NCBI GenBank assembly: GCA_043797265.1 | Contig: JAZDPV010000012.1 | Coordinates: forward strand, 13,875-77,874 | Source of the DNA: an archaeon | GTDB taxonomy: Archaea; Nanobdellota; Nanobdellia; Pacearchaeales; GW2011-AR1 | DNA length: 64,000 bases | Direction of reading: 5' to 3' | Part shown: one piece after another, positions 11,472 to 48,406 of the stretch | Layout: each line of letters begins with the position of its first letter | Numbering within the stretch: position 1 is the stretch's first letter | The notes under the pieces: model-generated | The model's input: only the letters and a program-made list of their open reading frames with translations | Databases searched by the model: none | What the model was told of the DNA's origin: nothing | Translations under genes and position numbers: made by a program

Positions 11472-11573
11472 GTCCCTGAAACCTGAATTCTGAAACCTGA
11501 AACCTATTGCGAAGCAACCGTCCCTGAAACCTGAATTCTGAAACCTGAAACCTGAAAACGCAAAGCGTTTTCA
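11472..11573. repeat. mosaic: CTGA heptads, GAA-triloop hairpin, CTGA heptads, AAA-loop hairpin
   Basis: gtccctgaaacctgaattctgaaacctgaaacct occurs twice, separated by ttgcGAAgcaa (11507-11517). The block ends in gaaaacgcAAAgcgttttc (11554-11572), which overlaps the stop of the 11571 gene. Confidence 0.9.
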
Positions 11574-13586: not shown

Positions 13587-13656
13587 TCCGCGCGCATCCG
13601 TATCTTCCGCACCTCGTCAATATTTCCCCCTACCTCCTACCTCCTACCCCTATCCT
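13587..13656. repeat. degenerate TCCGNG units followed by a CTA heptad array
   Basis: tccgcgcgca tccgtatct tccgcacc, then ctacctc ctacctc ctacccc cta. The CTA at 13637 is the stop of the acidic-protein gene. Confidence 0.7.
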
Positions 13657-14215
13657 TCTTCCCCTTATCTTCAAACCCCATGCTCTCCAAAACAGAATGC
13701 TTCCTCTCTCGCTCCGACGCAATCTCATCATAACTCTTCATCCCCCTCCCGACATCATAAACACCTTCGTCATTTTTCTTCCCAGAATAAAGCCTCGCCT
13801 CCCCCGTATTATACAAATCCCCCTCGTCCTTCCCTTTATACAAATCATCCCCACGCCCTGTTTCATAAAACCCCTCTCTCTTCCTTCCATCCGCCCCATA
13901 AAAATTCCCCGTCTTGACATTATAAAAATCCCCGCCAACAAATTCCTCGCTATCCTTCCACTCCCTCTCAATTCTCTCGTTTCTAAGAACCTCCTCTAAA
14001 TCCTCCTTGCTCCAACTCGCCTCCCCGCTCCCCGTCGACAAAATCGTATCCCCAATAAAAAAATCGCTAACCTCCTGCGCGACCTCTTCCAAATCATCCT
14101 CAAGCACATCCTCCAACTCCGCCTCTAAATCCTCATCAAAAATCCCGACGTCATCCTCGCCTTCCAACTCCTCTAAATCTTCTTCCGTCTCGACCTCATC
14201 CTCTTCCTCAACCAT
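13637..14215 (-). CDS. hypothetical highly acidic protein
   Basis: The N-terminal half is D/E-rich and the C-terminal half is G/Y/K-rich. No motif was recognised. Confidence 0.5.
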   Translation of the reverse strand: MVEEEDEVETEEDLEELEGEDDVGIFDEDLEAELEDVLEDDLEEVAQEVSDFFIGDTILSTGSGEASWSKEDLEEVLRNERIEREWKDSEEFVGGDFYNVKTGNFYGADGRKREGFYETGRGDDLYKGKDEGDLYNTGEARLYSGKKNDEGVYDVGRGMKSYDEIASERERKHSVLESMGFEDKGKKDRGRR

Positions 14216-16338: not shown

Positions 16339-16396
16339 CTCTCCACAAAAGAATCCCAATATTTAAACATTCCTCAAAACCACAAACCGCACCCAA

Positions 16397-16507
16397 CCTC
16401 GCGCCACGCGAGGCGGCGAAGCCGCCAAAGATATGAGAACCGAAAGTTCTCCAATTTTCCCCTCCTCTCCCAACCTCTCCCATCCTCCCCCACCCTCGCG
16501 AAGCGCC
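16397..16507. repeat. multi-hairpin element with C-rich tail, copy 1 of 4
   Basis: cctcgcg-cca-cgcgagg, ggcggc-GAA-gccgcc, aaagatat, gagaac-cgaaa-gttctc, caattttcccc, about 40 nt of C/T tract, cgc-GAA-gcg. It lies between divergent promoters. Confidence 0.85.
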
Positions 16508-16579
16508 CCGACAACCGACCAGTAAACAACATAAAAACTTCACAGAAGTTTTTATATACTCAATTCCCCTCCGCTAATC

Positions 16580-19243: not shown

Positions 19244-19310
19244 AAAAAATCAAACCCGCGCCATTTTTAAATCTTTCTATTGTAACCACTAACTAATAAC
19301 ACCACAACCA

Positions 19311-19405
19311 CACGGACGGCGAAGCCGCCAAAGATATAACAACGAAGTTGCCCAAATTCTCTCCCCCGTCCTCCCCCACCCTCGCGAAGCGCAAAGCGTT
19401 TTGCG
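19311..19405. repeat. multi-hairpin element copy 2 (lacks first hairpin) plus terminal hairpin
   Basis: cggc-GAA-gccg, aaagatat, aacaac-GAA-gttgcc, caaattc, C-rich tract, cgc-GAA-gcg, then cgcaaa-gcgt-tttgcg, which abuts the stop at 19406. Confidence 0.8.
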
Positions 19406-22825: not shown

Positions 22826-23560
22826 TCATCTCATCTCCTTAAGTTTTCTCAAAACAAAATCCGAAAACTCAATCGACTTCTCCGTCGCTGATTTAATATT
22901 AGCATAACATAAACCGCACGGCGAAATAACTCCATTAACCCAATCAGGAATTTCAGAAACCTTCTTCTTCACAACCATTTTCGCAACACTCGGAAAATTC
23001 GCACGCATCCCACCCCCAGCCCCGCAACAAATCGCGTCCTTTCGATTCAATTCAAACTCAAAAACTTTTCCACCCAATCTCTCAATCACCTCACGCGGCT
23101 CCTCATAAATCCCGCTATACCGCCCAAGATGACACGGGTCGTGATACGCAACCAACTCCCTCTCCCTATCCTCGCCCCTCCATTTAATATTTTTCTTCTT
23201 CAACGCATTCAGAATCGCAACCGTCGCGTGCTCAACCTCAATATCCCAACCCTTAACAAACTCCGGATAAATTTCTTTGAAAGTATGATAACACGACGGA
23301 CAATTAGTAATAATTTTCTTAATCCTATTTTTCTTAAACAAATCAAAATTCTTATTCGCCAATTTCCGCGCATCCTTCCGATAACCCGCATTCAAAACCG
23401 GCAACCCGCAACAAACCTCATCCATCGGCAACATCACAAAATCAATCCCCAACCGATTAAAAATCTCCTTGTAATTCTCCAACTCCGTCGACAAAACCCC
23501 CCTCGTCAAACATCCCGGATAATACAACGTCTTCTTCCCAAACAATCCAAACAACCCCAT
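22826..23560 (-). CDS. CCG-domain (cysteine-rich) Fe-S oxidoreductase subunit, GlcF/LutA C-terminal-like
   Basis: YYPGC, CCG, YHDPCHLGR and CCGAGGG are present. The start was chosen at MGLFGLFGKK because the upstream part of the ORF track crosses a repeat element. Confidence 0.75.
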   Translation of the reverse strand: MGLFGLFGKKTLYYPGCLTRGVLSTELENYKEIFNRLGIDFVMLPMDEVCCGLPVLNAGYRKDARKLANKNFDLFKKNRIKKIITNCPSCYHTFKEIYPEFVKGWDIEVEHATVAILNALKKKNIKWRGEDRERELVAYHDPCHLGRYSGIYEEPREVIERLGGKVFEFELNRKDAICCGAGGGMRANFPSVAKMVVKKKVSEIPDWVNGVISPCGLCYANIKSATEKSIEFSDFVLRKLKEMR

Positions 23561-23584
23561 ATCAAAACCCTCCTCCACACACAC

Positions 23585-23680
23585 CGCGCGACGCGACGAA
23601 GCCGCCAAGATATGGCAACGAAGTTGCCCAAATAGCGAAGCCGTCGAAGATATGAGAGCGAAGCTCTCCAAATTTTCCCT
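23585..23680. repeat. multi-hairpin element copy 3 (module duplicated, no C-rich tail)
   Basis: cgcg-cga-cgcg, cgac-GAA-gccg, aagatat, ggcaac-GAA-gttgcc, caaat, agcgaagccgtcg, aagatat, gagagc-GAA-gctctc, caaattttccc. Confidence 0.8.
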
Positions 23681-23762
23681 TCTCTAAATTATTTCCAAAA
23701 TCTAAAACCTTGCAAAGCACCATCCAAAACAAACAAAACAACACTACTTAAAATTTATTATA

Positions 23763-34226: not shown

Positions 34227-36804
34227 CGTCATCATAACCACCCGCAATTCTAAACCGCCCCTTACAAACACCATTCTTCAAACCGCCACACAATCGACTC
34301 TCCCTCGACCGCCCCCGATAATCATAACTCACAACAACCTCGTCAAAATTTTTCTCCGTCACCGAAATATCAAAATCAATATACCTCGCATACCACCGAC
34401 CCGCCTCCTTCCAAAACGAACCAGGATTATTCACCACCGGCGCAGTCCTGTCAACAACAACCTCACTCTTCACAGACTCGACACCATTCCCCGCAACATC
34501 CTCGACGACAAACCAATATTCAACCAAACCATCCGGCAAATCAACCGAAACATCACACTCCCAATTCCTCCCGACCTCAACGCAACCCTCAACCTCCTCG
34601 ACAAATCCATCATAATTCAAAAAAACTCCCGACGGATTAACCTCCCTAAACCTGACACTAAAATCCCCGTCAGAAAAACCACCGCTCGGCTCGACCTTAA
34701 GAATCACGGGCTTTATCGAATCAACAAAAAAATTCAAACTATGCTCCTCTTTCTCAACCGAATCCGAGCACCTCACAAAAACATCATGCTCCCCCTCGGA
34801 AAAAAATCTGCTGCCAAAATACCCGTCGCAATTCCGGCACAACCTCACCCACCTCGGACTCGACGCCGAATAATCAATATACTCTATCAATCCCAAACTC
34901 TTGCTCCCAACAACTTCAAAAGGAATATTCCTCGCAGAAAAAACATCATCATCCGTCGGAGAACTAACAACACATAAACCACCACCAGCACAAACATCCC
35001 CTGCATCATCACAACCAAACCTGCATTCCTCACAATTATCAACATTTTTACTATCACAATAAGACTCATCCGTCCCGCCATTCACACAAAAATGACTCAC
35101 ATTAGATTCACAAAACGTCCCTTCCTTACAAGACCTCGTCGACAAACTCTCGCCGCAATCACCATCGTCAAAACACTCAATCGGATTAACCCAAATCGGA
35201 TTCGTATAAAATCTCCTCTTCCCATCCTTGCTCACGCAATCAAAACGATAATACTTCTTCCCGGCGTCAATCTCCAAACCAACCTCTGAAAAAGTACCAG
35301 TACTATTATAATAATAACCAGGATTATCAAGCATATCCGAATAAACCCTGCGCTCAACTCCCGCATCAATAATTCCCTCATAAAAAGAAAAATTACAATA
35401 CCCGTGAATAAAAACATTCGCTACCATCTCCACCTCCCCGCCCTCAAGAATATTAATCTCCTCGCCAAACCCCGCGACATCCCCATGCAAATTATCAAAT
35501 TTAATAATAAGAAAATCACCATTACTCACATAACAATTCCCATTCTTCAACGCCTCAAAAATACTCTCCTTAAACTCACTATCCCCGACGGTATACGGCG
35601 AATAACAACAAGTATACTCCTTCCCAAAATTCTGAAAATCCCCATGCGCATCCGACCCCGCCGAAATAAAAACCTTCCGCCCATCCAAAAGAACATCCTT
35701 CCACTTCTCAATCCCCTCCTTTAAATCTACAACAACCTGTTCATCCTTAATGTCCCCATTCCAAATCTGCAAACCAGAAAACGGCAAAGAATAATCATGC
35801 CAAGTATCAACAGTTTCTAAACCTAAAATTATATCTATATTTGACTCCGGATGTGCAGCATAACTAAATCCACCCTGACCATTAACATTATTAATCACTT
35901 CCTCACAAGAAGGATTTTTCGACGAAAGCACATCAACAAAATTATCCTCGATATAATCCGAATAATCATAAGCCAGCAAATGATTCCCCCCTCCAACTAA
36001 ATTATAATCACAATTAACTTCCGTGCCAACCAAACACTTGTCATAACTACTACAATCATTCTTAAAATCACCCCAACTTAAACCAATATCATCATCTTTA
36101 TGTTCACTAAACGAATTCGAATGGTCAGTAACCGTCACCCAATCCAAACCCAAAACATCCAACACCGAAACAGTCGCACTAATCGGAGCACCAAACTCCC
36201 CCGCCGAAGAAGATAAAAATTTTGTATCTGTATAACTACTATGATAATGACTATCCCCACAATACCAATTAGGAATTTTTGGCAAATCTGAATCAATCTG
36301 AACAACCAAAGGATAAAACTCATTATCCGGCTCAGCATCACCGTCGGGAAACCCAACCCCCTTATACTTAGCAGTAATTTTAATACTATTATTACCATCC
36401 TTCTTAAATAAATCAGGATTAAGATATTCAACATCATACCAAACACGAGTATTAATCGTGCAATAAGAACCCGAATCTATAGACAATCCTAAATCCGTAC
36501 AAGAAAAACTTTTAACTAACCTACTCTTATTATTCCCATCATAAATTTCAACAGCATAAAAAGAATATTCCCAATAATCACTTCCATACGCATCCCTTAC
36601 CTCAAACAAAACGGGAACAAGTTCGCCAGACTCGATTCTATGGGGCACGTCGACGATAAATTCTCTCTGAGCAGTCTCTTCGACATAAAGTGGTCTGATT
36701 ACGCCGGAATCATTCTCCTCGATCATATCCTTATCTACATAAGCCGACACCATAGAAAATAAAACTAAAAATAATAAAATAACTACAAAAAATTGCTTCC
36801 TCAT
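34165..36804 (-). CDS. secreted PHP-domain protein with C-terminal Ig-like repeats
   Basis: The signal peptide is MRKQFFVVILLFLVLFSMVSA. PHP motifs are GDSHYHSSYTD, VTDHSNS, AAHPE and GSDAHGD. The middle is Cys-rich. Confidence 0.7.
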   Translation of the reverse strand: MRKQFFVVILLFLVLFSMVSAYVDKDMIEENDSGVIRPLYVEETAQREFIVDVPHRIESGELVPVLFEVRDAYGSDYWEYSFYAVEIYDGNNKSRLVKSFSCTDLGLSIDSGSYCTINTRVWYDVEYLNPDLFKKDGNNSIKITAKYKGVGFPDGDAEPDNEFYPLVVQIDSDLPKIPNWYCGDSHYHSSYTDTKFLSSSAGEFGAPISATVSVLDVLGLDWVTVTDHSNSFSEHKDDDIGLSWGDFKNDCSSYDKCLVGTEVNCDYNLVGGGNHLLAYDYSDYIEDNFVDVLSSKNPSCEEVINNVNGQGGFSYAAHPESNIDIILGLETVDTWHDYSLPFSGLQIWNGDIKDEQVVVDLKEGIEKWKDVLLDGRKVFISAGSDAHGDFQNFGKEYTCCYSPYTVGDSEFKESIFEALKNGNCYVSNGDFLIIKFDNLHGDVAGFGEEINILEGGEVEMVANVFIHGYCNFSFYEGIIDAGVERRVYSDMLDNPGYYYNSTGTFSEVGLEIDAGKKYYRFDCVSKDGKRRFYTNPIWVNPIECFDDGDCGESLSTRSCKEGTFCESNVSHFCVNGGTDESYCDSKNVDNCEECRFGCDDAGDVCAGGGLCVVSSPTDDDVFSARNIPFEVVGSKSLGLIEYIDYSASSPRWVRLCRNCDGYFGSRFFSEGEHDVFVRCSDSVEKEEHSLNFFVDSIKPVILKVEPSGGFSDGDFSVRFREVNPSGVFLNYDGFVEEVEGCVEVGRNWECDVSVDLPDGLVEYWFVVEDVAGNGVESVKSEVVVDRTAPVVNNPGSFWKEAGRWYARYIDFDISVTEKNFDEVVVSYDYRGRSRESRLCGGLKNGVCKGRFRIAGGYDDVKIVVRDLAGNSADYVLEGL

Positions 36805-37085
36805 AATTTTTTCTCGCAATATTTTCCTACAAAAATTCCTACAAAAACAAAAATTAAAATTAATAACAAAGAATAAACAAAAAATCCTATTATCCCAGTA
36901 TTTCCAAAAAAAGGCAGACAGCCTAAGAAAAAAATAGGATAAAAAATAAAAGCTACCCAAGAATCTATTTTAAATGGACAACTATATCCAACAAATCCTA
37001 ATGCAATAGAATAATAAATTCCTATAAGAACATAAATCCCTCCAACTCCCCCCCCAATCAAACCACCTTTCCAAGCCCTCTCCAT
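36801..37085 (-). CDS. hypothetical small membrane protein
   Basis: It has three hydrophobic helices and an ATGA overlap with the PHP gene. Confidence 0.5.
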   Translation of the reverse strand: MERAWKGGLIGGGVGGIYVLIGIYYSIALGFVGYSCPFKIDSWVAFIFYPIFFLGCLPFFGNTGIIGFFVYSLLLILIFVFVGIFVGKYCEKKL

Positions 37086-37141
37086 CCAACCTAAACAAAA
37101 CCAAACTATTTAAAATCTCCTAAAAATTATTCTCCAAATAT

Positions 37142-40066
37142 TTACCTCAAACTCTCTTCAATCACCCCCTTCTCCTCGTCGGTAATCCCATATAACTTGT
37201 AAACCTCTTCATTAATCTCATAATCAATATTATCAATTTGCTGTTTCAATCTTTCTTTTTCTCCGCCCGCAATTTTCTCATCGTGATATTTTTTCTGAAG
37301 TTCAAGCATTTGCTCAACAAGGGAAATTATTTTCTTTTCTTGGGCGGAAGGGGGAAGACGAATCGGAAGATTTTTAATAAATCTGTTTTCATAAGAATAA
37401 TACCCTCCTCGTAAAAATGTAGAAGTCTTCTTAATAAAAAATTCAGATAACTTACTATTTAAAATTCCCAATAAAATTTCTTTGTTATATTCGTTTTTAA
37501 CTTTAAGTCCATAACCTCCAGCCACTCCAGCAGTAAAAAACCATTCTCTCGTTTTGTCTATGGTAAATGAATTTGAAAAAGCATTAAACGGAGTTAGAAT
37601 CTTTTCCTTTTCAAATTCTTCTAAATTTTGAGGTCTACTAAATGCATACCAAGATATTTTATTTTCTTTTACATCTGTTCTATCTTTAAGAAGAGATTTG
37701 TGTTTTGTTAAATATTTATAACACTTAGGGAATTCTTTCTCAAGTTCTCTTTCGGAAATTAAAGTATATTTATTTTCTTTTAAGATATAAGGGAAAATTA
37801 AATGCCTTTGAGAAGTTAATGACTTATATTTTTTTATTTCTAATCCTTTTACTAATTTTTTCAAAATTTTTCTCTCTATTTCAATATAACCATTTTCTTC
37901 GTCGGAGAAAAATTTTCCTTCTTTTTCATGTATAATAAAAACTTTATCAGCACTAGTTATTAATCCTTGAAATATCTTTTCGCAAACATCTTCTAATTTT
38001 AAATCTACTTTATCTAATTTTTCTAAAAGATTAGAATTATTTTCACTCCCAAAGTTCCAAGTTTTACCTTCTAATTTAGCTTGAGAATAAATAATGGAAT
38101 TTTGAATATCAATTTCTCCAAAAGAAGCTTTTTTCAAATCAGAAATTTTTATATAAACTAATTTACTCATTTTATCTTCTTTTGATTTTCTAAGAACATA
38201 AATTCCAGGATAAGTAATAGCACTTTCAAATACTGGCAAATCTCCAAAATCAACAATTTTATTTATAGTTGAATTGTTTAATATAAATTCTCTTAAACTT
38301 TCTCCATAATTTGCAGACATAAATTTTGAAGGCATAATAAACGAAAACAATCCTTTCTCTCTCATTATCTTTAAACTCAATTCTGTGAATAACATATAAG
38401 TATCAATATATCCTTTAGCAACATCATATTTTTTATTTAACCATTTAACTTCTTTTGGATTAATTTCCTGAACACGAACATACGGCGGATTCCCGACGAC
38501 AACATCAAAACCTCCACTTTTGAAAACATCTGGGAATTGCGCTTTCCAATTAAAAGCCCTGTCTGAAACTTTCGCGTCGTCAATTAATGAATTCCCACAT
38601 TTAATATTATTTTCAAGATGAGGCAAAAGCATCTTCCTTGTTTCCTGCGTTTCTTCATCTAAAAGTTTTAATAACAAATTCAATCTCGCAAGTTCAACCG
38701 CCTTCTCATCCAAGTCAACTCCATAAACGCAGTTTCTCAAAATCTCAATCTTCTGCCCCAAATTTAATTTATCTATTTTCTTCCCAGAATTTTTAAATAA
38801 AGTCTTGCTCCCTTCCTCTCCATTATTTAATTTATCTTCTATAACATTGCAAACCTCAACAAATGCTCGCGTAATAAACGAACCCGAACCACACGCAGGG
38901 TCTAAAATATTCACTTCCAAAATTTCATCAATCGTCTTATCTTTAATATATTCATAAACCGTATTCTTAACGATGTAATCCACAATATAAGCGGGAGTAT
39001 AATAAATTCCCATTTTCTTTCTTTTCCCCGACGATGAATCCAGTTTCACCCGCTTTTCTGTTCCCGCCAAAATAGTCCCCAAATATTGCTCATAAATCCC
39101 TCCAAATAAATCTCCGGGAATCTGGTCAAATAAATATCTCTCTTGATTTCCCTCGCTCCCAAAATATAATGCAACTATAACTTTTCTTAAAACCTCGTCA
39201 GAAAAAGCTCCCTCCTTTTCCAAAAGTCCTTTCTCAAATAATTTAGAGTCATACTTTTTATTAAATTCTTCAAATTGTTCAAGTAAATAAGGAAATAACT
39301 GGAACCTTACTACTTGTTGCCTCACATTACTTTCTAAACTTTTAAGAAAATTCATTGGCTCCAACCCCCTATCTTCAACGCTTCTTATAAAAATCAACCT
39401 GTCAATTAAAATCTGAACAACCTCGTCGATAACCTCTTGACTAAGATAATTCTTTTTTGCCTTTAATTCTTTTGAAAGCCAACCTCTAATATTCAATAAA
39501 TCATTTAAAATATTTTCATCAATCGGTTTGTTAATTTTTTCATCTTTAGCCGAAAGCAATTTATCTATCTCCCTATTCTCAAAACTCTCCCTCGACAAAA
39601 GCCAAAGCAAATCAAACTTCTCAACAAAATCTTTCGCCTCAAGAATAAAATATGCTCCGTCCTTCTTTAATAAATTTCTATCTATAAGTTTTACATTCGA
39701 AAGTGCATGATAAACTCTAAGATGTTTAAAATTTGTAAGAACAGCAAATTTAATTTTTCTATGATAAGCATACGAAACCGCCTGTCTACCCTCTTCTTCC
39801 AACAAATGAACGCTAGTCTTCTTTGCTTCAATAACAAGTTTTTCTTGGTTCCCAATTCTCAAAATATAATCCGCTCGCCCCTTCAAAATCCTGGTTTCCT
39901 TAGAAATCTCTTCCCTTTTCCATCCCAAAGCTTCAAACAACGGCTCAATAAACTGAAACTTAATATCTTCCTCAGGCATAGAATCAATTTGACTTTTTGG
40001 ATAAGACTCAAACTTCTCAACCAGCCTCCCAACCTCTTCCTTCGCCTTCTCTTTATCGCTCATCAC
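37142..40066 (-). CDS. Type IIG restriction-modification enzyme (PD-ExK nuclease + gamma-class N6-adenine methyltransferase + specificity domain)
   Basis: The N-terminal GRADYIL...LVIEAKK gives D...ExK. Motif I is ILDPACGSGSFI and motif IV is VVGNPPYV. A long TaqI/Eco57I-like C-terminal region follows. The gene is AT-rich relative to the host. Confidence 0.85.
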   Translation of the reverse strand: MMSDKEKAKEEVGRLVEKFESYPKSQIDSMPEEDIKFQFIEPLFEALGWKREEISKETRILKGRADYILRIGNQEKLVIEAKKTSVHLLEEEGRQAVSYAYHRKIKFAVLTNFKHLRVYHALSNVKLIDRNLLKKDGAYFILEAKDFVEKFDLLWLLSRESFENREIDKLLSAKDEKINKPIDENILNDLLNIRGWLSKELKAKKNYLSQEVIDEVVQILIDRLIFIRSVEDRGLEPMNFLKSLESNVRQQVVRFQLFPYLLEQFEEFNKKYDSKLFEKGLLEKEGAFSDEVLRKVIVALYFGSEGNQERYLFDQIPGDLFGGIYEQYLGTILAGTEKRVKLDSSSGKRKKMGIYYTPAYIVDYIVKNTVYEYIKDKTIDEILEVNILDPACGSGSFITRAFVEVCNVIEDKLNNGEEGSKTLFKNSGKKIDKLNLGQKIEILRNCVYGVDLDEKAVELARLNLLLKLLDEETQETRKMLLPHLENNIKCGNSLIDDAKVSDRAFNWKAQFPDVFKSGGFDVVVGNPPYVRVQEINPKEVKWLNKKYDVAKGYIDTYMLFTELSLKIMREKGLFSFIMPSKFMSANYGESLREFILNNSTINKIVDFGDLPVFESAITYPGIYVLRKSKEDKMSKLVYIKISDLKKASFGEIDIQNSIIYSQAKLEGKTWNFGSENNSNLLEKLDKVDLKLEDVCEKIFQGLITSADKVFIIHEKEGKFFSDEENGYIEIERKILKKLVKGLEIKKYKSLTSQRHLIFPYILKENKYTLISERELEKEFPKCYKYLTKHKSLLKDRTDVKENKISWYAFSRPQNLEEFEKEKILTPFNAFSNSFTIDKTREWFFTAGVAGGYGLKVKNEYNKEILLGILNSKLSEFFIKKTSTFLRGGYYSYENRFIKNLPIRLPPSAQEKKIISLVEQMLELQKKYHDEKIAGGEKERLKQQIDNIDYEINEEVYKLYGITDEEKGVIEESLR

Positions 40067-40148
40067 ACTCCCTCACACCATTCACATTTCCCACTCGGAC
40101 ACTCCCCCTCCAACAACTCCAACGCCCCCCTCCAAACCTTCTCCTCCA

Positions 40149-43813: not shown

Positions 43814-43899
43814 GGCAACGAAGTTGCCTTAACTTAAACCTGACGCCTGACGCCTGACGCCTGACGCCTGATTTATGAAAATCTTTGATTTTCATAAAT
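43814..43899. repeat. mosaic: GAA-triloop hairpin, four CTGACGC heptads, 13-bp hairpin overlapping the gyrB stop
   Basis: ggcaac-GAA-gttgcc (43814-43828), ctgacgc x4 plus ctgattt (43840-43874), and atttatgaaaatc-ttt-gattttcataaat (43871-43899). Confidence 0.9.
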
Positions 43900-46353: not shown

Positions 46354-46394
46354 TAATCTCTCCCCCTACAATTTACACAACCCGCCAAGTCACA

Positions 46395-46476
46395 CTTCCA
46401 GCGAAGCGGACTTCCAGCGAAGCGGACTTCCAACTTCCAGCGAAGCGGACTGATTAAAATGCTCCGCATTTTAATC
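46395..46476. repeat. 16-nt CTTCC-AGCGAAGCGGA units (three, plus one 7-nt partial) and a 10-bp hairpin containing the rps28e stop
   Basis: cttccagcgaagcgga x2, cttccaa, cttccagcgaagcgga, then gattaaaatg-ctccg-cattttaatc (46452-46476). Confidence 0.9.
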
Positions 46477-46785: not shown

Positions 46786-46793
46786 CTTAAATC

Positions 46794-46828
46794 CTACCCC
46801 CTACCTCCTACTTACTACCTTCTATCTT
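46794..46828. repeat. CTA-type heptad array spanning the rpl7ae stop
   Basis: ctacccc ctacctc ctactta ctacctt ctatctt. The CTA at 46808 is the TAG stop of rpl7ae. Confidence 0.85.
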
Positions 46829-47107
46829 AGCTTCCCCAACCTCGATAACCGCAACCGCCGACGCCGGCCGATTAATCCCAACAGAAATCCCCAACTTCTC
46901 ACGCGAATCAACCTCGACAAACTTAATATTTTTCTCCTCACATAAAATACTCAAATGCTGCGTCAGCTCCTTCGGCTCAACATCCTTCGCGACAACAACC
47001 ATTTTCGCAACCCCCCGCTCGACCGCCTTCGTCACCTCATTCACGCCCTTATCAACTTTCCCGGTCTTCGCCGCCTTCTCAACCACATCATAAACACTAT
47101 TCGCCAT
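46808..47107 (-). CDS. rpl7ae: 50S ribosomal protein L7Ae
   Basis: KGVNEVTKAVERGVAKMVVVAKDVEP...LCEEKNIKFVEVDS. Confidence 0.9.
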   Translation of the reverse strand: MANSVYDVVEKAAKTGKVDKGVNEVTKAVERGVAKMVVVAKDVEPKELTQHLSILCEEKNIKFVEVDSREKLGISVGINRPASAVAVIEVGEAKIEGSK

Positions 47108-47314: not shown

Positions 47315-48406
47315 TTACCGCCAGGAATCACAAATTACTTCATCCGTCCTCTCCCTCGGCGAAATATCAACCTTATCCAAATCCCAATAAACTCCTGACG
47401 CCTGATTTCTGACGCCTGATTTCTGCGCCGCGCGCCACATCTTCAACCCCAAATACCCAATCATCCCCGCATTATCAACCAGCAAACTCCTCGGCGGCAC
47501 AAATAACTTGCAACCTCGCTCCTCGCACATAATCCTGCACATTTCCTGCAACCGCGAATTACAAGCAACCCCGCCGCCCAACAAAAGTTCTTTCTTTCCA
47601 GTATGCGCCAACGCCCTCTCCGCAACCTCAACCAGCATCGCAAACACAACCTCCTGCATCGAATACGCAATCTTAAATTTATCCTCGCCCCTCTCAATCA
47701 AATTCTTAATCTTCGTCTGCATCCCCGCAAACGCAACATCCATCCCCTTCACCGAATACGGCAACTCCAAAATCTCAACCCATTTTCTTTTAGATTCGTG
47801 TCCATCTGTGTTCATTCGTGAGCAATTATTTTCTTTCAATGTCCGTGAGATATACTCCTCCGCCATCTTCTCAATCTTAGGCCCAGCAGGAAATCCAAGT
47901 TTCATAAATCTCCCAACCGTATCAATAAAATTCCCAACTCCCAAATCCAACGTCTCACCAAAAACCCGATACTTCCCCGCCTCGTAAGCAATCACCTGAG
48001 TATTCGCTCCCGACGCATAAAGCATAACCGGATCCCTCGCCCCGACACTCTCCCCAATTTCCAAATGTGCAACACAATGATTAACACAAACAACCGGTAT
48101 ACCAAGCCGCCCCGCAATCTTCTTCACAAATTCCATCCCCTCCAAAAGACACGGGGCCAACCCCGGCGCATTCGAAAACGCAACAGCGTCGATATTTTCC
48201 TCAGAAATCCCTGCCTCATCCAAAGCCCGCTTATACAAACCATCGCCAACTTTCCTATGATGCTTCCGAACTTCCAAAGGAATCATCCCGCCTTCTTCAG
48301 TAAAATATGAATCCTTAACATTAGAAAGTATATTCCCTTCTATATCAACAACCGCCACACCAAACGTATGCGCCGTACTCTCAACCCCCAAAATAAACTT
48401 TCCCAT
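47315..48406 (-). CDS. kae1: tRNA N6-adenosine threonylcarbamoyltransferase Kae1
   Basis: ILGVESTAHTFGVAV, VNHCVAHLEIG and SGANTQV. It contains two repeat-encoded inserts. Confidence 0.92.
   Translation of the reverse strand: MGKFILGVESTAHTFGVAVVDIEGNILSNVKDSYFTEEGGMIPLEVRKHHRKVGDGLYKRALDEAGISEENIDAVAFSNAPGLAPCLLEGMEFVKKIAGRLGIPVVCVNHCVAHLEIGESVGARDPVMLYASGANTQVIAYEAGKYRVFGETLDLGVGNFIDTVGRFMKLGFPAGPKIEKMAEEYISRTLKENNCSRMNTDGHESKRKWVEILELPYSVKGMDVAFAGMQTKIKNLIERGEDKFKIAYSMQEVVFAMLVEVAERALAHTGKKELLLGGGVACNSRLQEMCRIMCEERGCKLFVPPRSLLVDNAGMIGYLGLKMWRAAQKSGVRNQASGVYWDLDKVDISPRERTDEVICDSWR
47395..47429. repeat. CTGA heptad/14-mer array inside kae1
   Basis: ctgacgc ctgattt ctgacgc ctgattt ctgcgcc, read as AAQKSGVRNQASGV. 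Confidence 0.85.
47796..47825. repeat. decamer array inside kae1
   Basis: tcgtgtccat ctgtgttcat tcgtgagcaa, read as CSRMNTDGHES. Confidence 0.8.

What the first reader, a model, noticed from the sequence alone, without database searches (positions are those of the whole stretch)
16397..16507. Four copies of a ~100-nt multi-hairpin element with compensatory stem changes and a tail that could form a G-quadruplex or i-motif
The copies lie at 16397-16507, 19311-19391, 23585-23680 and 53762-53867, all in the same orientation. They share this order: hairpin cctcgcg-NNN-cgcgagg, hairpin ggcggc-GAA-gccgcc, AAAGATMT, a third hairpin, YAATTTTCCCC, a 35-40 nt C/T tract, then cgc-GAA-gcg. The third hairpin varies in sequence while keeping its pairing: gagaac/gttctc, gagaacc/ggttctc, ggcaac/gttgcc and gagagc/gctctc. 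This is covariation expected for a selected structure, not for a protein. On the - strand the tail reads GGGTGGGGGAGGATGGGAGAGGTTGGGAGAGGAGGGG, a canonical G-quadruplex motif. Two copies sit between divergent promoters upstream of both TATA boxes, one sits in a 3' region, and one looks like a 5' leader. There is therefore no common transcript context. A solo third-hairpin module also occurs at 43814-43828.
Basis: partly seen in the sequence, partly recalled or inferred. Interest (0 to 1): 0.7.

Follow-up and report, generated by a model that had tools for sequence, protein, structure and literature searches.

The report
Strand-specific hairpin repeat, DPANN archaeon
The four sequences are real copies of a small non-coding repeat made of short hairpins, found only in a narrow group of tiny uncultivated archaea; it looks like a miniature insertion element, not a new RNA gene or a quadruplex switch.

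Summary
The repeat is real. Copies c1 and c4 are 88% identical over 123 nt, and an 18-mer from the core occurs 4 times against 0.02 expected. The shared layout holds fully only for c1 and c4. Copy c2 lacks hairpin 1. Copy c3 is a tandem duplication of the hairpin 2 + hairpin 3 module and has no C-rich tail.

The host is a DPANN archaeon whose + strand has only 12.6% G. The element is not protein-coding and matches no Rfam family. Stems keep pairing through a few compensatory changes.

The quadruplex tail is not a family feature. Only c1 and c4 have four C-runs, and such motifs are not enriched.

Sister genomes carry copies at some orthologous sites. The closest relative has a clean empty site at c1, and c3 is absent elsewhere. 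In the window, c3 sits between a gene's ancestral promoter and start codon and its present start.

All copies lie on the C-rich strand, and the loops match the GCGAAGC mini-hairpin, which is far more stable in DNA than in RNA. My best reading (0.45) is a modular REP/BOX-like miniature repeat acting at the DNA level. An ncRNA remains possible (0.25).

The parts
16386..16508 (+). Copy c1, the full-length repeat. Hairpin 1 is 16397-16413 (cctcgcgCCAcgcgagg). Hairpin 2 is 16412-16426 (ggcggcGAAgccgcc). The linker AAAGATAT is 16427-16434. Hairpin 3 is 16435-16451 (gagaacCGAAAgttctc). CAATTTTCCCC plus a C-rich 10-nt-period tail runs 16451-16493. A truncated second hairpin 1 (CCTCGCGAAGCGC) is 16494-16506.
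   Evidence: (77 bits).
16377..16539 (+). Segment present in the window (and in L081) but absent from the orthologous site of L149 and L086, where the two divergent TATA boxes are about 15 nt apart. Its last bases (ataaaaacttc) pair with the native TATA region of the + gene (gaagtttttat), forming an 11-bp hairpin at 16531-16555.
19311..19392 (+). Copy c2. There is no hairpin 1. Hairpin 2 is 19317-19327 (cggcGAAgccg). Hairpin 3 is 19340-19350 (caacGAAgttg). The tail is short, and the end motif CCTCGCGAAGCGC is 19380-19392. It lies between the stop of the ferredoxin gene (19406) and the TATA (about 19263-19273) of the cell-wall hydrolase gene.
   Evidence: (66 bits).
23585..23681 (+). Copy c3. 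Two tandem hairpin 2 + hairpin 3 modules occupy 23590-23632 (hairpin 3 ggcaacGAAgttgcc, 23614-23628) and 23633-23681 (hairpin 3 gagagcGAAgctctc, 23654-23668). There is no C tail and no end motif.
   Evidence: period 40, 1.9 copies.
23561..23719 (+). Inserted segment that holds c3. It separates the ancestral start codon (ATG on the minus strand at 23721-23723, preceded by TATA 23750-23762) from the present start of the CCG-domain gene (ATG 23558-23560). The same site is empty in L081, L087 and L089.
53752..53869 (+). Copy c4, full length. Hairpin 1 is 53762-53778. Hairpin 2 is 53777-53791. Hairpin 3 is 53800-53816 (gagaaccGAAggttctc). The tail is 53817-53854 and the end motif is 53855-53867. 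It starts 12 nt beyond the TATA box (53740-53749) of the minus-strand ProRS gene.
   Evidence: (73 bits).
43814..43828 (+). Solo hairpin ggcaacGAAgttgcc, identical to hairpin 3 of c3a but without the family's flanking motifs. It is followed by (CCTGACG)x4.7.
   Evidence: (E 0.076).

Best explanation
It is a lineage-restricted, modular, non-coding interspersed repeat, comparable in kind to bacterial REP/BIME, pneumococcal BOX or hairpin-ended miniature insertion elements.

Modules:
- an optional hairpin 1 (CCTCGCG-N3-CGCGAGG);
- a sequence-conserved hairpin 2 (GGCGGC-GAA-GCCGCC);
- the linker AAGATAT;
- hairpin 3, with a variable stem and a GAA loop;
- CYAAWWT;
- a C-rich short tandem repeat;
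- in this genome, a truncated second hairpin 1.

Modules can be missing or duplicated.

Shown:
- Copies are related by descent.
- They are non-coding.
- They keep their stems.
- They all lie on the C-rich DNA strand.
- They are gained, lost or replaced between close relatives, including one insertion between a gene's promoter and its coding sequence.

Inferred:
- The element acts at the DNA level. It is copied or rearranged through single-stranded DNA in a strand-specific way, and the c-GAA-g hairpins are the feature that is recognised or kept.
- It needs no host function at each site.
- It accumulates just upstream of TATA boxes because that is the free space in a compact genome with leaderless genes.
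For: (1) Copies by descent. c1 and c4 are 88% identical over 123 nt at loci 37 kb apart. Paralogues in other species are as similar as orthologues: c1 vs L143 is 90% over 62 nt, and c1 vs its orthologue in L081 is 81% over 81 nt.

(2) Modularity. c2 lacks hairpin 1. c3 duplicates the hairpin 2 + hairpin 3 module. Tails are 10-nt repeats here and 15-nt repeats in species B.

(3) Presence/absence.
- The c1 site is filled in the window and in L081. It holds other cGAAg hairpins in L077. It is cleanly empty in L149 (GluRS 88% identical, the closest relative) and in L086.
- The c3 site is empty in L081, L087 and L089.
- The c4 site is filled in L143 but not in L141.
- The c2 site is filled in L077, while L149 holds a different insert there.

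(4) Strand, not transcription, sets the orientation.
- All 10 model hits (6 independent loci in 3 species) are on the C-rich strand.
- c3 is antisense inside an mRNA leader. A related cGAAg repeat array at 56591-56658 lies in the sense orientation inside an aaRS gene.
- No mirror-image copies occur upstream of + strand genes.

(5) GCGAAGC occurs 17 times on the + strand and 4 times on the - strand in the window. Across the clade's loci the counts are about 48 against 13, with roughly 4 expected on each strand. This heptamer is the extra-stable DNA mini-hairpin, and its RNA form is much less stable (PMC13037366).

(6) There is no Rfam match and no protein homologue.
Against: - No transposase, HUH/Y1 or RAYT gene was found among about 45 ORFs of the window scanned against Pfam. 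The rest of the genome was not available.
- There are no convincing terminal inverted repeats or target-site duplications. The 13-nt 'inverted' ends of c1 and c4 are simply a repeat of palindromic hairpin 1. The CCAT-type duplication at c3 and the CCACAAA duplication at c1 are weak.
- Hairpin 2 and the linker are nearly invariant between species whose proteins are only 81-88% identical. This could mean function and need not reflect recent copying.
- The strand bias rests on six independent loci, all from regions with the same skew sign, so replication strand and other strand-linked causes cannot be separated.
- The G-to-A mutation pressure of this strand could itself explain why all stem defects are A.C on the + strand.
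Confidence: 0.45

Rival explanations
1. It is a family of small non-coding RNA genes, or divergent promoter-associated transcripts. The RNA would be read on the + strand from the TATA box that lies 12-50 nt upstream of each copy. The three hairpins and the conserved single-stranded AAGAUAU and CYAAWWU would be the functional RNA.
For: - Stems change on both sides.
- Unpaired motifs are conserved between species.
- A TATA box lies upstream of 7 of 9 copies.
- The + strand RNA folds of c1 and c4 have z = -5.2 and -5.3. The minus strand gives -3.3 and -2.9.
Against: - Every such TATA is already explained by the adjacent minus-strand leaderless gene, whose ATG lies 28-29 nt from the TTTA as at other genes.
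- With that spacing, a + strand start would fall inside hairpin 1 in c4 and in L081.
- c3 has no TATA and lies antisense in an mRNA leader.
- The L141 copy lies between convergent genes.
- The closest relative lacks the c1 and c2 copies.
- No T-run terminator is conserved.
- c2, c3 and L143 fold no better than shuffles (z = -0.3 to -2.5).
- Triloops of the form c-GAA-g are the DNA optimum, not the RNA optimum (PMC13037366).
- There is no Rfam hit.
Confidence: 0.25
2. It is double-stranded regulatory DNA upstream of minus-strand promoters. The tandem C-rich units and conserved motifs would be protein-binding sites, and/or the G-rich minus strand would form a quadruplex (i-motif on the + strand) that tunes or insulates the promoters.
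For: - All four window copies lie just beyond a minus-strand gene's 5' end.
- The tails are short tandem repeats with about one helical turn of period.
- c1 and c4 carry four or more C3+ runs.
- The genome encodes gyrase, so negative supercoiling could extrude structures.
Against: - Only 2 of 4 copies, and none of the copies in relatives, reach four runs.
- G4 motifs are not enriched (5 against 7.7 +/- 2.8).
- Tails differ in unit and length between species.
- Compensatory stem changes are not expected for duplex binding sites.
- The neighbouring genes share no theme: an unknown 519-aa protein, a hydrolase, a CCG-domain protein and ProRS.
- The orthologous promoters work without the element in L149, L086 and L081.
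Confidence: 0.1
3. The hairpins are local mutational by-products. Template switching would make or perfect palindromes, and slippage would make the tandem tails, in a genome with unusual replication. Sequence would not be copied between loci.
For: - Insert ends are inverted copies of the adjacent native sequence (16531-16555, and 56649-56665 at the aaRS insert).
- Many unrelated short tandem repeats and cGAAg hairpins occur on the same strand.
Against: 88% identity over 123 nt between loci 37 kb apart, and 80-90% identity to copies at non-orthologous loci in other species, cannot arise independently.
Confidence: 0.05
4. The copies encode a small conserved protein, either the minus-strand ORFs of 50-70 aa or a + strand frame.
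For: - NCBI annotated a 50-aa hypothetical protein over c1.
- The frame giving ...IFGGFA... is open in c1, c2 and c3.
- In c3, the 53-codon minus-strand ORF from the ancestral ATG ends 1 nt before the real ATG and may be translated as an upstream ORF.
Against: - The only match among 5.8 billion proteins is the ORF itself.
- The frame carries stops in c4.
- Indels between copies are not multiples of three.
- The ORFs overlap the TATA box and start of the neighbouring genes.
- Relatives have empty sites.
Confidence: 0.01

Closest known systems
REP / BIME elements of bacteria (with RAYT transposases; REPINs)
   Same: They are short G+C-rich extragenic palindromes combined with other motifs into mosaic units. 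Many copies are interspersed in the genome. The hairpin is kept while the sequence drifts. The single-stranded hairpin is thought to be the form that is recognised.
   Different: No GTAG or CGTC tag flanks the palindromes. No RAYT was seen. REPs sit mostly at gene 3' ends, whereas these sit beyond promoters, also between divergent genes. The host is archaeal, and the density looks modest (4 copies per 64 kb).
BOX elements of Streptococcus pneumoniae (own knowledge: boxA-(boxB)n-boxC)
   Same: They have a modular build with a variable number of an internal module (compare c3's duplicated hairpin 2 + hairpin 3). They are intergenic, predicted to fold stably, have no coding capacity, and no mobilising enzyme is known for them.
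   Different: There is no sequence relation. BOX elements have no reported strict strand bias and no C-rich tandem tail.
IS200/IS605-type single-strand transposition and derived hairpin-ended miniature elements (own knowledge: orientation is coupled to the replication fork)
   Same: Both have subterminal hairpins in place of inverted repeats, lack an obvious target duplication, and show a uniform orientation with respect to one DNA strand.
   Different: No TnpA or TnpB was found nearby. No conserved target tetra- or pentanucleotide was identified. If ordinary deamination skew applies, the hairpins with the stable GAA loops are on the C-rich strand, which would not be the strand most exposed as single-stranded DNA.
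DNA mini-hairpin d(GCGAAGC) in single-strand initiation signals and hairpin promoters (phage G4 origin, ssiA of RSF1010, phage N4 early promoters; PMC13037366)
   Same: The loop and closing pair are the same (c-GAA-g), occur on one specific strand, and are strongly over-represented.
   Different: Those are single functional sites at origins or promoters of phages and plasmids. Here the hairpins are dispersed in a chromosome, and no link to priming has been shown.
G+C clusters and 'byp' elements of yeast mitochondrial genomes (own knowledge)
   Same: They are small hairpin-forming mobile inserts that stand out in composition from a strongly biased genome. They occur in spacers and occasionally inside genes.
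   Different: They occur in a different domain of life, share no sequence relation, and the evidence for mobility here is only comparative.

Membership tests
REP/BIME (RAYT-associated) | Short (20-40 bp) imperfect palindrome, extragenic | tested here: met
   Hairpins 1-3 have 6-8 bp stems and 3-5 nt loops, and all lie outside confident genes.
REP/BIME (RAYT-associated) | Conserved GTAG or CGTC tetranucleotide at one end of the palindrome (PMC3733652, abstract) | tested here: not met
   No GTAG or CGTC flanks hairpin 1, 2 or 3 in any copy, read on either strand.
REP/BIME (RAYT-associated) | A RAYT (Y1 transposase) gene in the genome, and more than 100 copies per genome | not testable with these tools
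   Only 64 kb of a 122-kb contig is available. None of about 45 scanned ORFs is a Y1 transposase. Four copies in 64 kb.
MITE | Terminal inverted repeats | tested here: inconclusive
   The ends of c1 and c4 are 11/13 complementary (GCGCCACGCGAGG vs the reverse complement of CCTCGCGAAGCGC). This is a direct repeat of palindromic hairpin 1. It is absent in c2, c3 and all copies in relatives.
MITE | Target-site duplication flanking the insert, compared with an empty site | tested here: inconclusive
   At c3, CCCATATCAAAAC (left) and ACCATCCAAAACA (right) compare with the empty site CCCATCCCAAACC. At c1, CCACAAACC and TCACAGAAG compare with CCACAAATC. The repeats are short and degenerate.
MITE | A parent insertion sequence with matching ends | tested here: not met
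   BLAST of the inserts against all fetched loci, including L148 with a DDE transposase, finds only other copies.
IS200/IS605-derived hairpin elements | Uniform orientation relative to one DNA strand | tested here: met
   All 10 model hits lie on the C-rich strand, from 6 independent loci in 3 species.
IS200/IS605-derived hairpin elements | Insertion 3' of a fixed tetra- or pentanucleotide, and a TnpA in the genome | tested here: inconclusive
   The left junctions share only C/A-rich sequence (CCAC...). No TnpA is present in the window.
Known structured RNA family (Rfam 15) | Match to a covariance model at or near the gathering score | tested here: not met
   In the whole window only two tRNAs pass. 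Permissive scans of c1 and c4 give only chance-level miRNA/DicF hits of 9-16 bits.
Archaeal C/D box or H/ACA sRNA | C (RUGAUGA) and D (CUGA) boxes with guide spacing, or a pseudouridylation pocket plus an ACA box | tested here: not met
   No UGAUGA occurs in any copy. CUGA is present only in c4. The hairpins are perfect 6-7 bp stems without internal loops.
G-quadruplex / i-motif element | Four runs of at least 3 G (or C) with loops of 1-7 nt, conserved across copies and enriched over composition | tested here: not met
   Only c1 and c4 qualify. c2 has 3 runs and c3 has none. Relatives have 3 runs or fewer. The window has 5 motifs against 7.7 +/- 2.8 in shuffles.
Small protein gene | Conserved open frame and homologues | tested here: not met

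The most novel reading that the evidence does not exclude
The c-GAA-g hairpins, in this repeat and in the other + strand hairpin arrays of the window, would be host signals read on single-stranded DNA. They would be tied to the unusual, strongly asymmetric replication of this clade, which may be unidirectional or strand-displacement-like. Possible roles are dispersed priming (ssi-like) or fork-processing sites. On this reading, the extreme G/C strand disparity and the strand-locked mini-hairpins are two faces of one replication system.
Probability: 0.1. Interest if true: 0.8.

Novelty: new variant of a known kind. Interest (0 to 1): 0.45.

Why it matters
DPANN archaea are regarded as streamlined, and little is known about repeats in their genomes. 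This family has several features of interest:
- It turns over between close relatives.
- It is locked to one DNA strand.
- It uses the loop that is optimal for DNA hairpins rather than RNA hairpins.
- It reshapes gene starts. c3 turns a leaderless gene into one preceded by a 53-codon upstream ORF.

Together these suggest active small-element dynamics in a clade that also has one of the most lopsided strand compositions seen in a cellular genome. If the strand-locked hairpins are connected to replication, the clade would be a natural system for studying non-canonical archaeal replication. If not, the element is still a useful strain marker, and a warning for annotators that small ORFs are called over it.

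Tried and rejected
- An exact 19-mer scan of 185,579 species' genomes returned only single chance hits in G+C-rich bacteria (GGC-GAA-GCC-GCC is codon-like) and no archaeon.
- The viral contig scan found nothing.
- Look-up of the source contig by exact protein failed, so the rest of the MAG could not be read.
- Rfam at gathering and permissive thresholds found nothing.
- A protein search with the overlapping ORF returned only itself.
- RNAfold proposes an extended helix AAGAU/AUUUU around hairpin 3 and a long-range hairpin 1 to end-motif helix in c1 and c4. Neither is supported in the other copies.
- A C/D box or H/ACA reading was rejected on motifs.
- An origin of replication (ORB) reading was rejected. 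The copies are dispersed over 37 kb in one orientation, the skew does not switch, and no orc1/cdc6 gene is nearby.
- A bulge-helix-bulge intron was considered for the related insert in the aaRS gene. No such structure appeared.
- TIR and TSD analysis was inconclusive.
- Association with a gene class: none was found.

Full report
**Source organism.** The window is cellular archaeal DNA. It encodes archaeal-type GluRS, ProRS, aIF5B, aIF2-gamma, ribosomal proteins S6e, S28e and L7Ae, deoxyhypusine synthase, Kae1 and gyrase A/B. The GluRS and ProRS are 100% identical to proteins of an NCBI 'MAG: archaeon' on a 122-kb contig. Their relatives are labelled Nanoarchaeota or Pacearchaeota, that is, DPANN.

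The + strand of the whole window is A 35%, C 30%, T 23% and G 12.6%. GC skew is -0.2 to -0.6 in every 2-kb bin whatever the gene direction. The same disparity holds in all close relatives fetched. Genes have a TTTAWATA box whose first T lies 28-29 nt before the ATG, so most mRNAs are leaderless.

**Check of the observation.** The four loci are there. An 18-mer from hairpin 2 plus the linker occurs 4 times with up to 3 mismatches, against 0.02 expected. c1 and c4 are 87.8% identical over 123 nt (16386-16508 vs 53752-53869). c2 and c3 share shorter parts.

I built a covariance model of hairpin 2, linker, hairpin 3 and CCAAATT. Run without filters, it recovers five modules (c3 holds two) and the solo hairpin at 43814, and nothing else in 64 kb.

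c2 lacks hairpin 1 and has a degenerate hairpin 3. c3 is a 40-nt tandem duplication of the hairpin 2 + hairpin 3 module, without the C tail and the end motif. The end motif CCTCGCGAAGCGC is a truncated second copy of hairpin 1 (CCTCGCG-N3-CGCGAGG). This is why RNAfold can close c1 and c4 with a long-range helix.

**Coding capacity and known RNA families.** The shared peptide (...IFGGFA...) only reflects the shared DNA. The frame has stops in c4, and indels between copies are not multiples of three. The c1 ORF finds only itself (a 50-aa NCBI 'hypothetical protein') among 5.8 billion proteins. Rfam gives nothing beyond two tRNAs in the window and chance-level hits on the copies.

**Stem conservation.** On ten copies from four genomes, 93% of pair cells are standard pairs and four pairs show changes on both sides. 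None of 500 shuffles reaches this, and slid controls drop to 31-58% paired. Between orthologues:
- c1 and L081 differ by gagaac/gttctc vs gagagc/gctctc in hairpin 3.
- They differ by cctcgcg/cgcgagg vs ccccgcgc/gcgcgggg in hairpin 1.

Pairing is therefore kept. The evidence is thin, however. Three discrete hairpin 3 versions (gagaac, gagagc, ggcaac) recur in different species and loci, so only two or three events are behind it. All single-sided stem defects are G-to-A on the + strand (c1, c2, c3a, L143b). That is the direction of this strand's mutation pressure, and it would also be a G.U wobble on the minus strand, so it decides nothing.

**The tail.** A four-run C3+ pattern (G4 on the minus strand) exists only in c1 and c4. 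c2 has three runs and c3 has none. Copies in relatives have at most three. The window holds 5 such motifs, against 7.7 +/- 2.8 after shuffling within 100-nt blocks. The tails are short tandem repeats. Units of 10 nt (CCTCTCCCAA and similar) occur here, and units of about 15 nt (CCAAAATNCCCCTCT) occur in species B. I see no support for a selected quadruplex or i-motif.

**Context.** All four copies lie immediately beyond the 5' end of a minus-strand gene:
- c1 lies past the TATA of a 519-aa protein gene.
- c4 starts 12 nt past the TATA of ProRS.
- c2 lies between the ferredoxin stop and the hydrolase TATA.
- c3 lies next to the start of a CCG-domain gene.

c1 and c4 are in divergent spacers. 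A small membrane-protein ORF starts at 53937, to the right of c4.

**Relatives.** I fetched the GluRS and ProRS neighbourhoods of relatives. By GluRS identity, the window (A), L149 (D, 88%), L081 (B, 84%) and L077 (C, 83%) form a tight group, and L086 (79%) lies outside it. Model hits in about 320 kb of such DNA are few, and all lie on the C-rich strand:
- L081 8262-8313, at the c1 site.
- L077 12484-12539, at the c2 site.
- L143 7866-7919, at the c4 site upstream of ProRS.
- L143 11199-11253.
- A weak one, L141 5364-5414, between convergent genes.

Relatives at 62-68% GluRS identity share the skew but have no hits. An exact 19-mer scan of 185,579 species found only chance hits in G+C-rich bacteria. 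The family is therefore confined to a narrow clade.

**Presence and absence.**
- At the c1 site, L149 and L086 have the two divergent TATA boxes about 15 nt apart and nothing else. The window has about 163 extra nt (16377-16539) and L081 has a similar insert. L077 has a different array of cGAAg hairpins.
- At the c3 site, L081, L087 and L089 read CCAT (start codon), 24 nt, then ACTACTTAAAATTT (TATA). The window keeps exactly this at 23720-23762, but about 159 nt holding c3 follow before the gene resumes with its own ATG at 23560.
- The c4 site is filled in L143 and absent in L141.
- At the c2 site, L149 carries an unrelated stem-closed insert.

The pattern does not fit the GluRS distances without at least two events per site. 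These are the dynamics of an insertion-type repeat. They do not fit a fixed regulatory site or a housekeeping RNA gene.

**Strand specificity and loop type.** Every hairpin loop of the family is GAA closed by C-G. GCGAAGC occurs 17 times on the + strand and 4 times on the minus strand, with 1.4 expected on each. Summed over the clade's loci, the counts are about 48 and 13, with about 4 expected on each strand.

Other, unrelated + strand elements use the same loop:
- ACTTCCAGCGAAGCGG arrays at 46394-46455, 56600-56644 and 62105-62125.
- ttgcGAAgcaa at 11507.
- tttttccGAAggaaaaa at 56649.

d(GCGAAGC) is the extraordinarily stable DNA mini-hairpin. Its RNA counterparts melt far lower. It occurs in single-strand priming signals and hairpin promoters of phages and plasmids (PMC13037366).

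Orientation does not follow transcription. c3 is antisense within an mRNA leader, the array at 56591-56658 is sense within a gene, and c1 and c4 lie in divergent spacers. No mirror-image copies sit upstream of + strand genes. This holds although +|+ spacers make up 2.5 kb, against 3.8 kb for -|- spacers.

**Weighing RNA against DNA.** Points for an RNA gene:
- The stems are kept.
- The unpaired motifs are conserved.
- A TATA lies upstream of most copies.
- The + strand fold z-scores are -5.2 and -5.3 for c1 and c4.

Points against:
- Each TATA already serves the neighbouring leaderless gene. With the genome's 28-29 nt spacing, a + strand start would fall inside hairpin 1 in c4 and L081.
- c3 and the L141 copy have no promoter.
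- c2, c3 and L143 fold no better than shuffles.
- No terminator is conserved.
- The closest relative does without c1 and c2.

I therefore prefer a DNA-level, strand-specific modular repeat (0.45) over an ncRNA family (0.25). Promoter-upstream regulatory DNA gets 0.1. No transposase was found in the window, and TIR and TSD evidence is inconclusive, so the copying mechanism is inferred, not shown. One recurring detail may bear on it. The 3' end of an insert is an inverted copy of the native sequence that follows (16531-16555 over the + gene's TATA; 56649-65 in the aaRS gene). This suggests fold-back or template-switch joining.

**Comparison with known elements.** It works like REP/BIME, BOX or hairpin-ended miniature elements. 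It fails the defining REP tag (GTAG/CGTC; PMC3733652), and RAYT presence and copy number could not be tested. It also lacks the clear TIR and TSD of a MITE. I therefore file it as a new variant of a known kind and not as a member of any named family.

The extreme strand disparity has a published precedent in CPR Microgenomates, where unidirectional replication was proposed (PMC7143001). I found no report of it for DPANN in the library searched.

Noticed in passing
window 1-64000; also L076-L091, L141-L149: The strand composition disparity is extreme and uniform. The + strand is C 30% and G 12.6%, with GC skew -0.2 to -0.6 in every 2-kb bin regardless of gene direction. All relatives down to about 62% GluRS identity share it, including loci from 502- and 603-kb contigs. 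A similar pattern is published for some CPR bacteria (PMC7143001). The papers searched held no report of it for DPANN.
   Followed up: partly
window 55967-58857 (insert 56591-56658): A class I aaRS (IleRS-like) is interrupted. The N part ends in a stop at 56645-56647 inside a 3 x 16-nt AGCGAAGCGGACTACC array. The C-part frame is open from 56599 and encodes [26 protein letters not shown] before its first ATG (56737). Removing 68 nt restores ...[21 protein letters not shown]. One more 16-nt unit would make the insert in-frame and free of stops. This could be a split gene, a repeat-number variant, an assembly collapse or RNA-level bypass. No BHB intron was seen.
   Followed up: partly
window 23558-23762: The insertion holding c3 left the ancestral leaderless start (ATG at 23721-23723, TATA 23750-23762) intact. 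From it, a 53-codon minus-strand ORF runs through the element and stops (TGA 23562-23564) 1 nt before the real ATG (23558-23560). GGAGGAGGG lies 7 nt upstream. This looks like rescue by translational coupling.
   Followed up: partly
window 46394-46476, 56600-56665, 62040-62161; L081 17100-17180: A second + strand repeat family consists of tandem 16-nt units ACTTCCAGCGAAGCGG, each a cc(a)gcGAAgcgg mini-hairpin. They are usually followed by a long A+T-rich perfect hairpin (11-14 bp) near the stop of a minus-strand gene.
   Followed up: partly
window 11475-11557, 13629-13665, 43839-43871, 47394-47429, 46793-46829, 54107-54145, 53947-53977: Many perfect or near-perfect heptamer tandem repeats lie on the + strand in spacers: CCTGAAA, CCTGACG, CCTACCT and TCTATTA. 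CCTGACG x4.7 directly follows the solo hairpin at 43814.
   Followed up: no
window 16531-16555: An 11-bp perfect hairpin, ataaaaacttcACAgaagtttttat, has the TATA box of the + strand gene (ATG 16580) as its 3' arm. It is conserved in L081 and absent in the relatives with an empty site.
   Followed up: partly
window 3724-3793: A tRNA-Val has anticodon AAC and C at position 33 (anticodon loop ccaacat). From my own knowledge, archaea are not known to use an A34 valine tRNA. It may reflect the G-to-A pressure of this strand, or it may be a decaying gene. Its Rfam tRNA score is 57 bits.
   Followed up: no
L149 3665-3829 (relative in L087 11922-12028): At the c2 site, the closest relative carries an unrelated 165-nt insert closed by a 23-bp stem. 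Its G content is normal, its RNA fold z-score is -9.0, and it has no Rfam match. It may be a MITE or a structured RNA.
   Followed up: partly
window 36000-40100: A low-GC island (0.32 against about 0.44) holds an Eco57I/MmeI-like fused restriction-modification gene (37142-40066). It was probably acquired horizontally, yet it shows the same strand skew.
   Followed up: no
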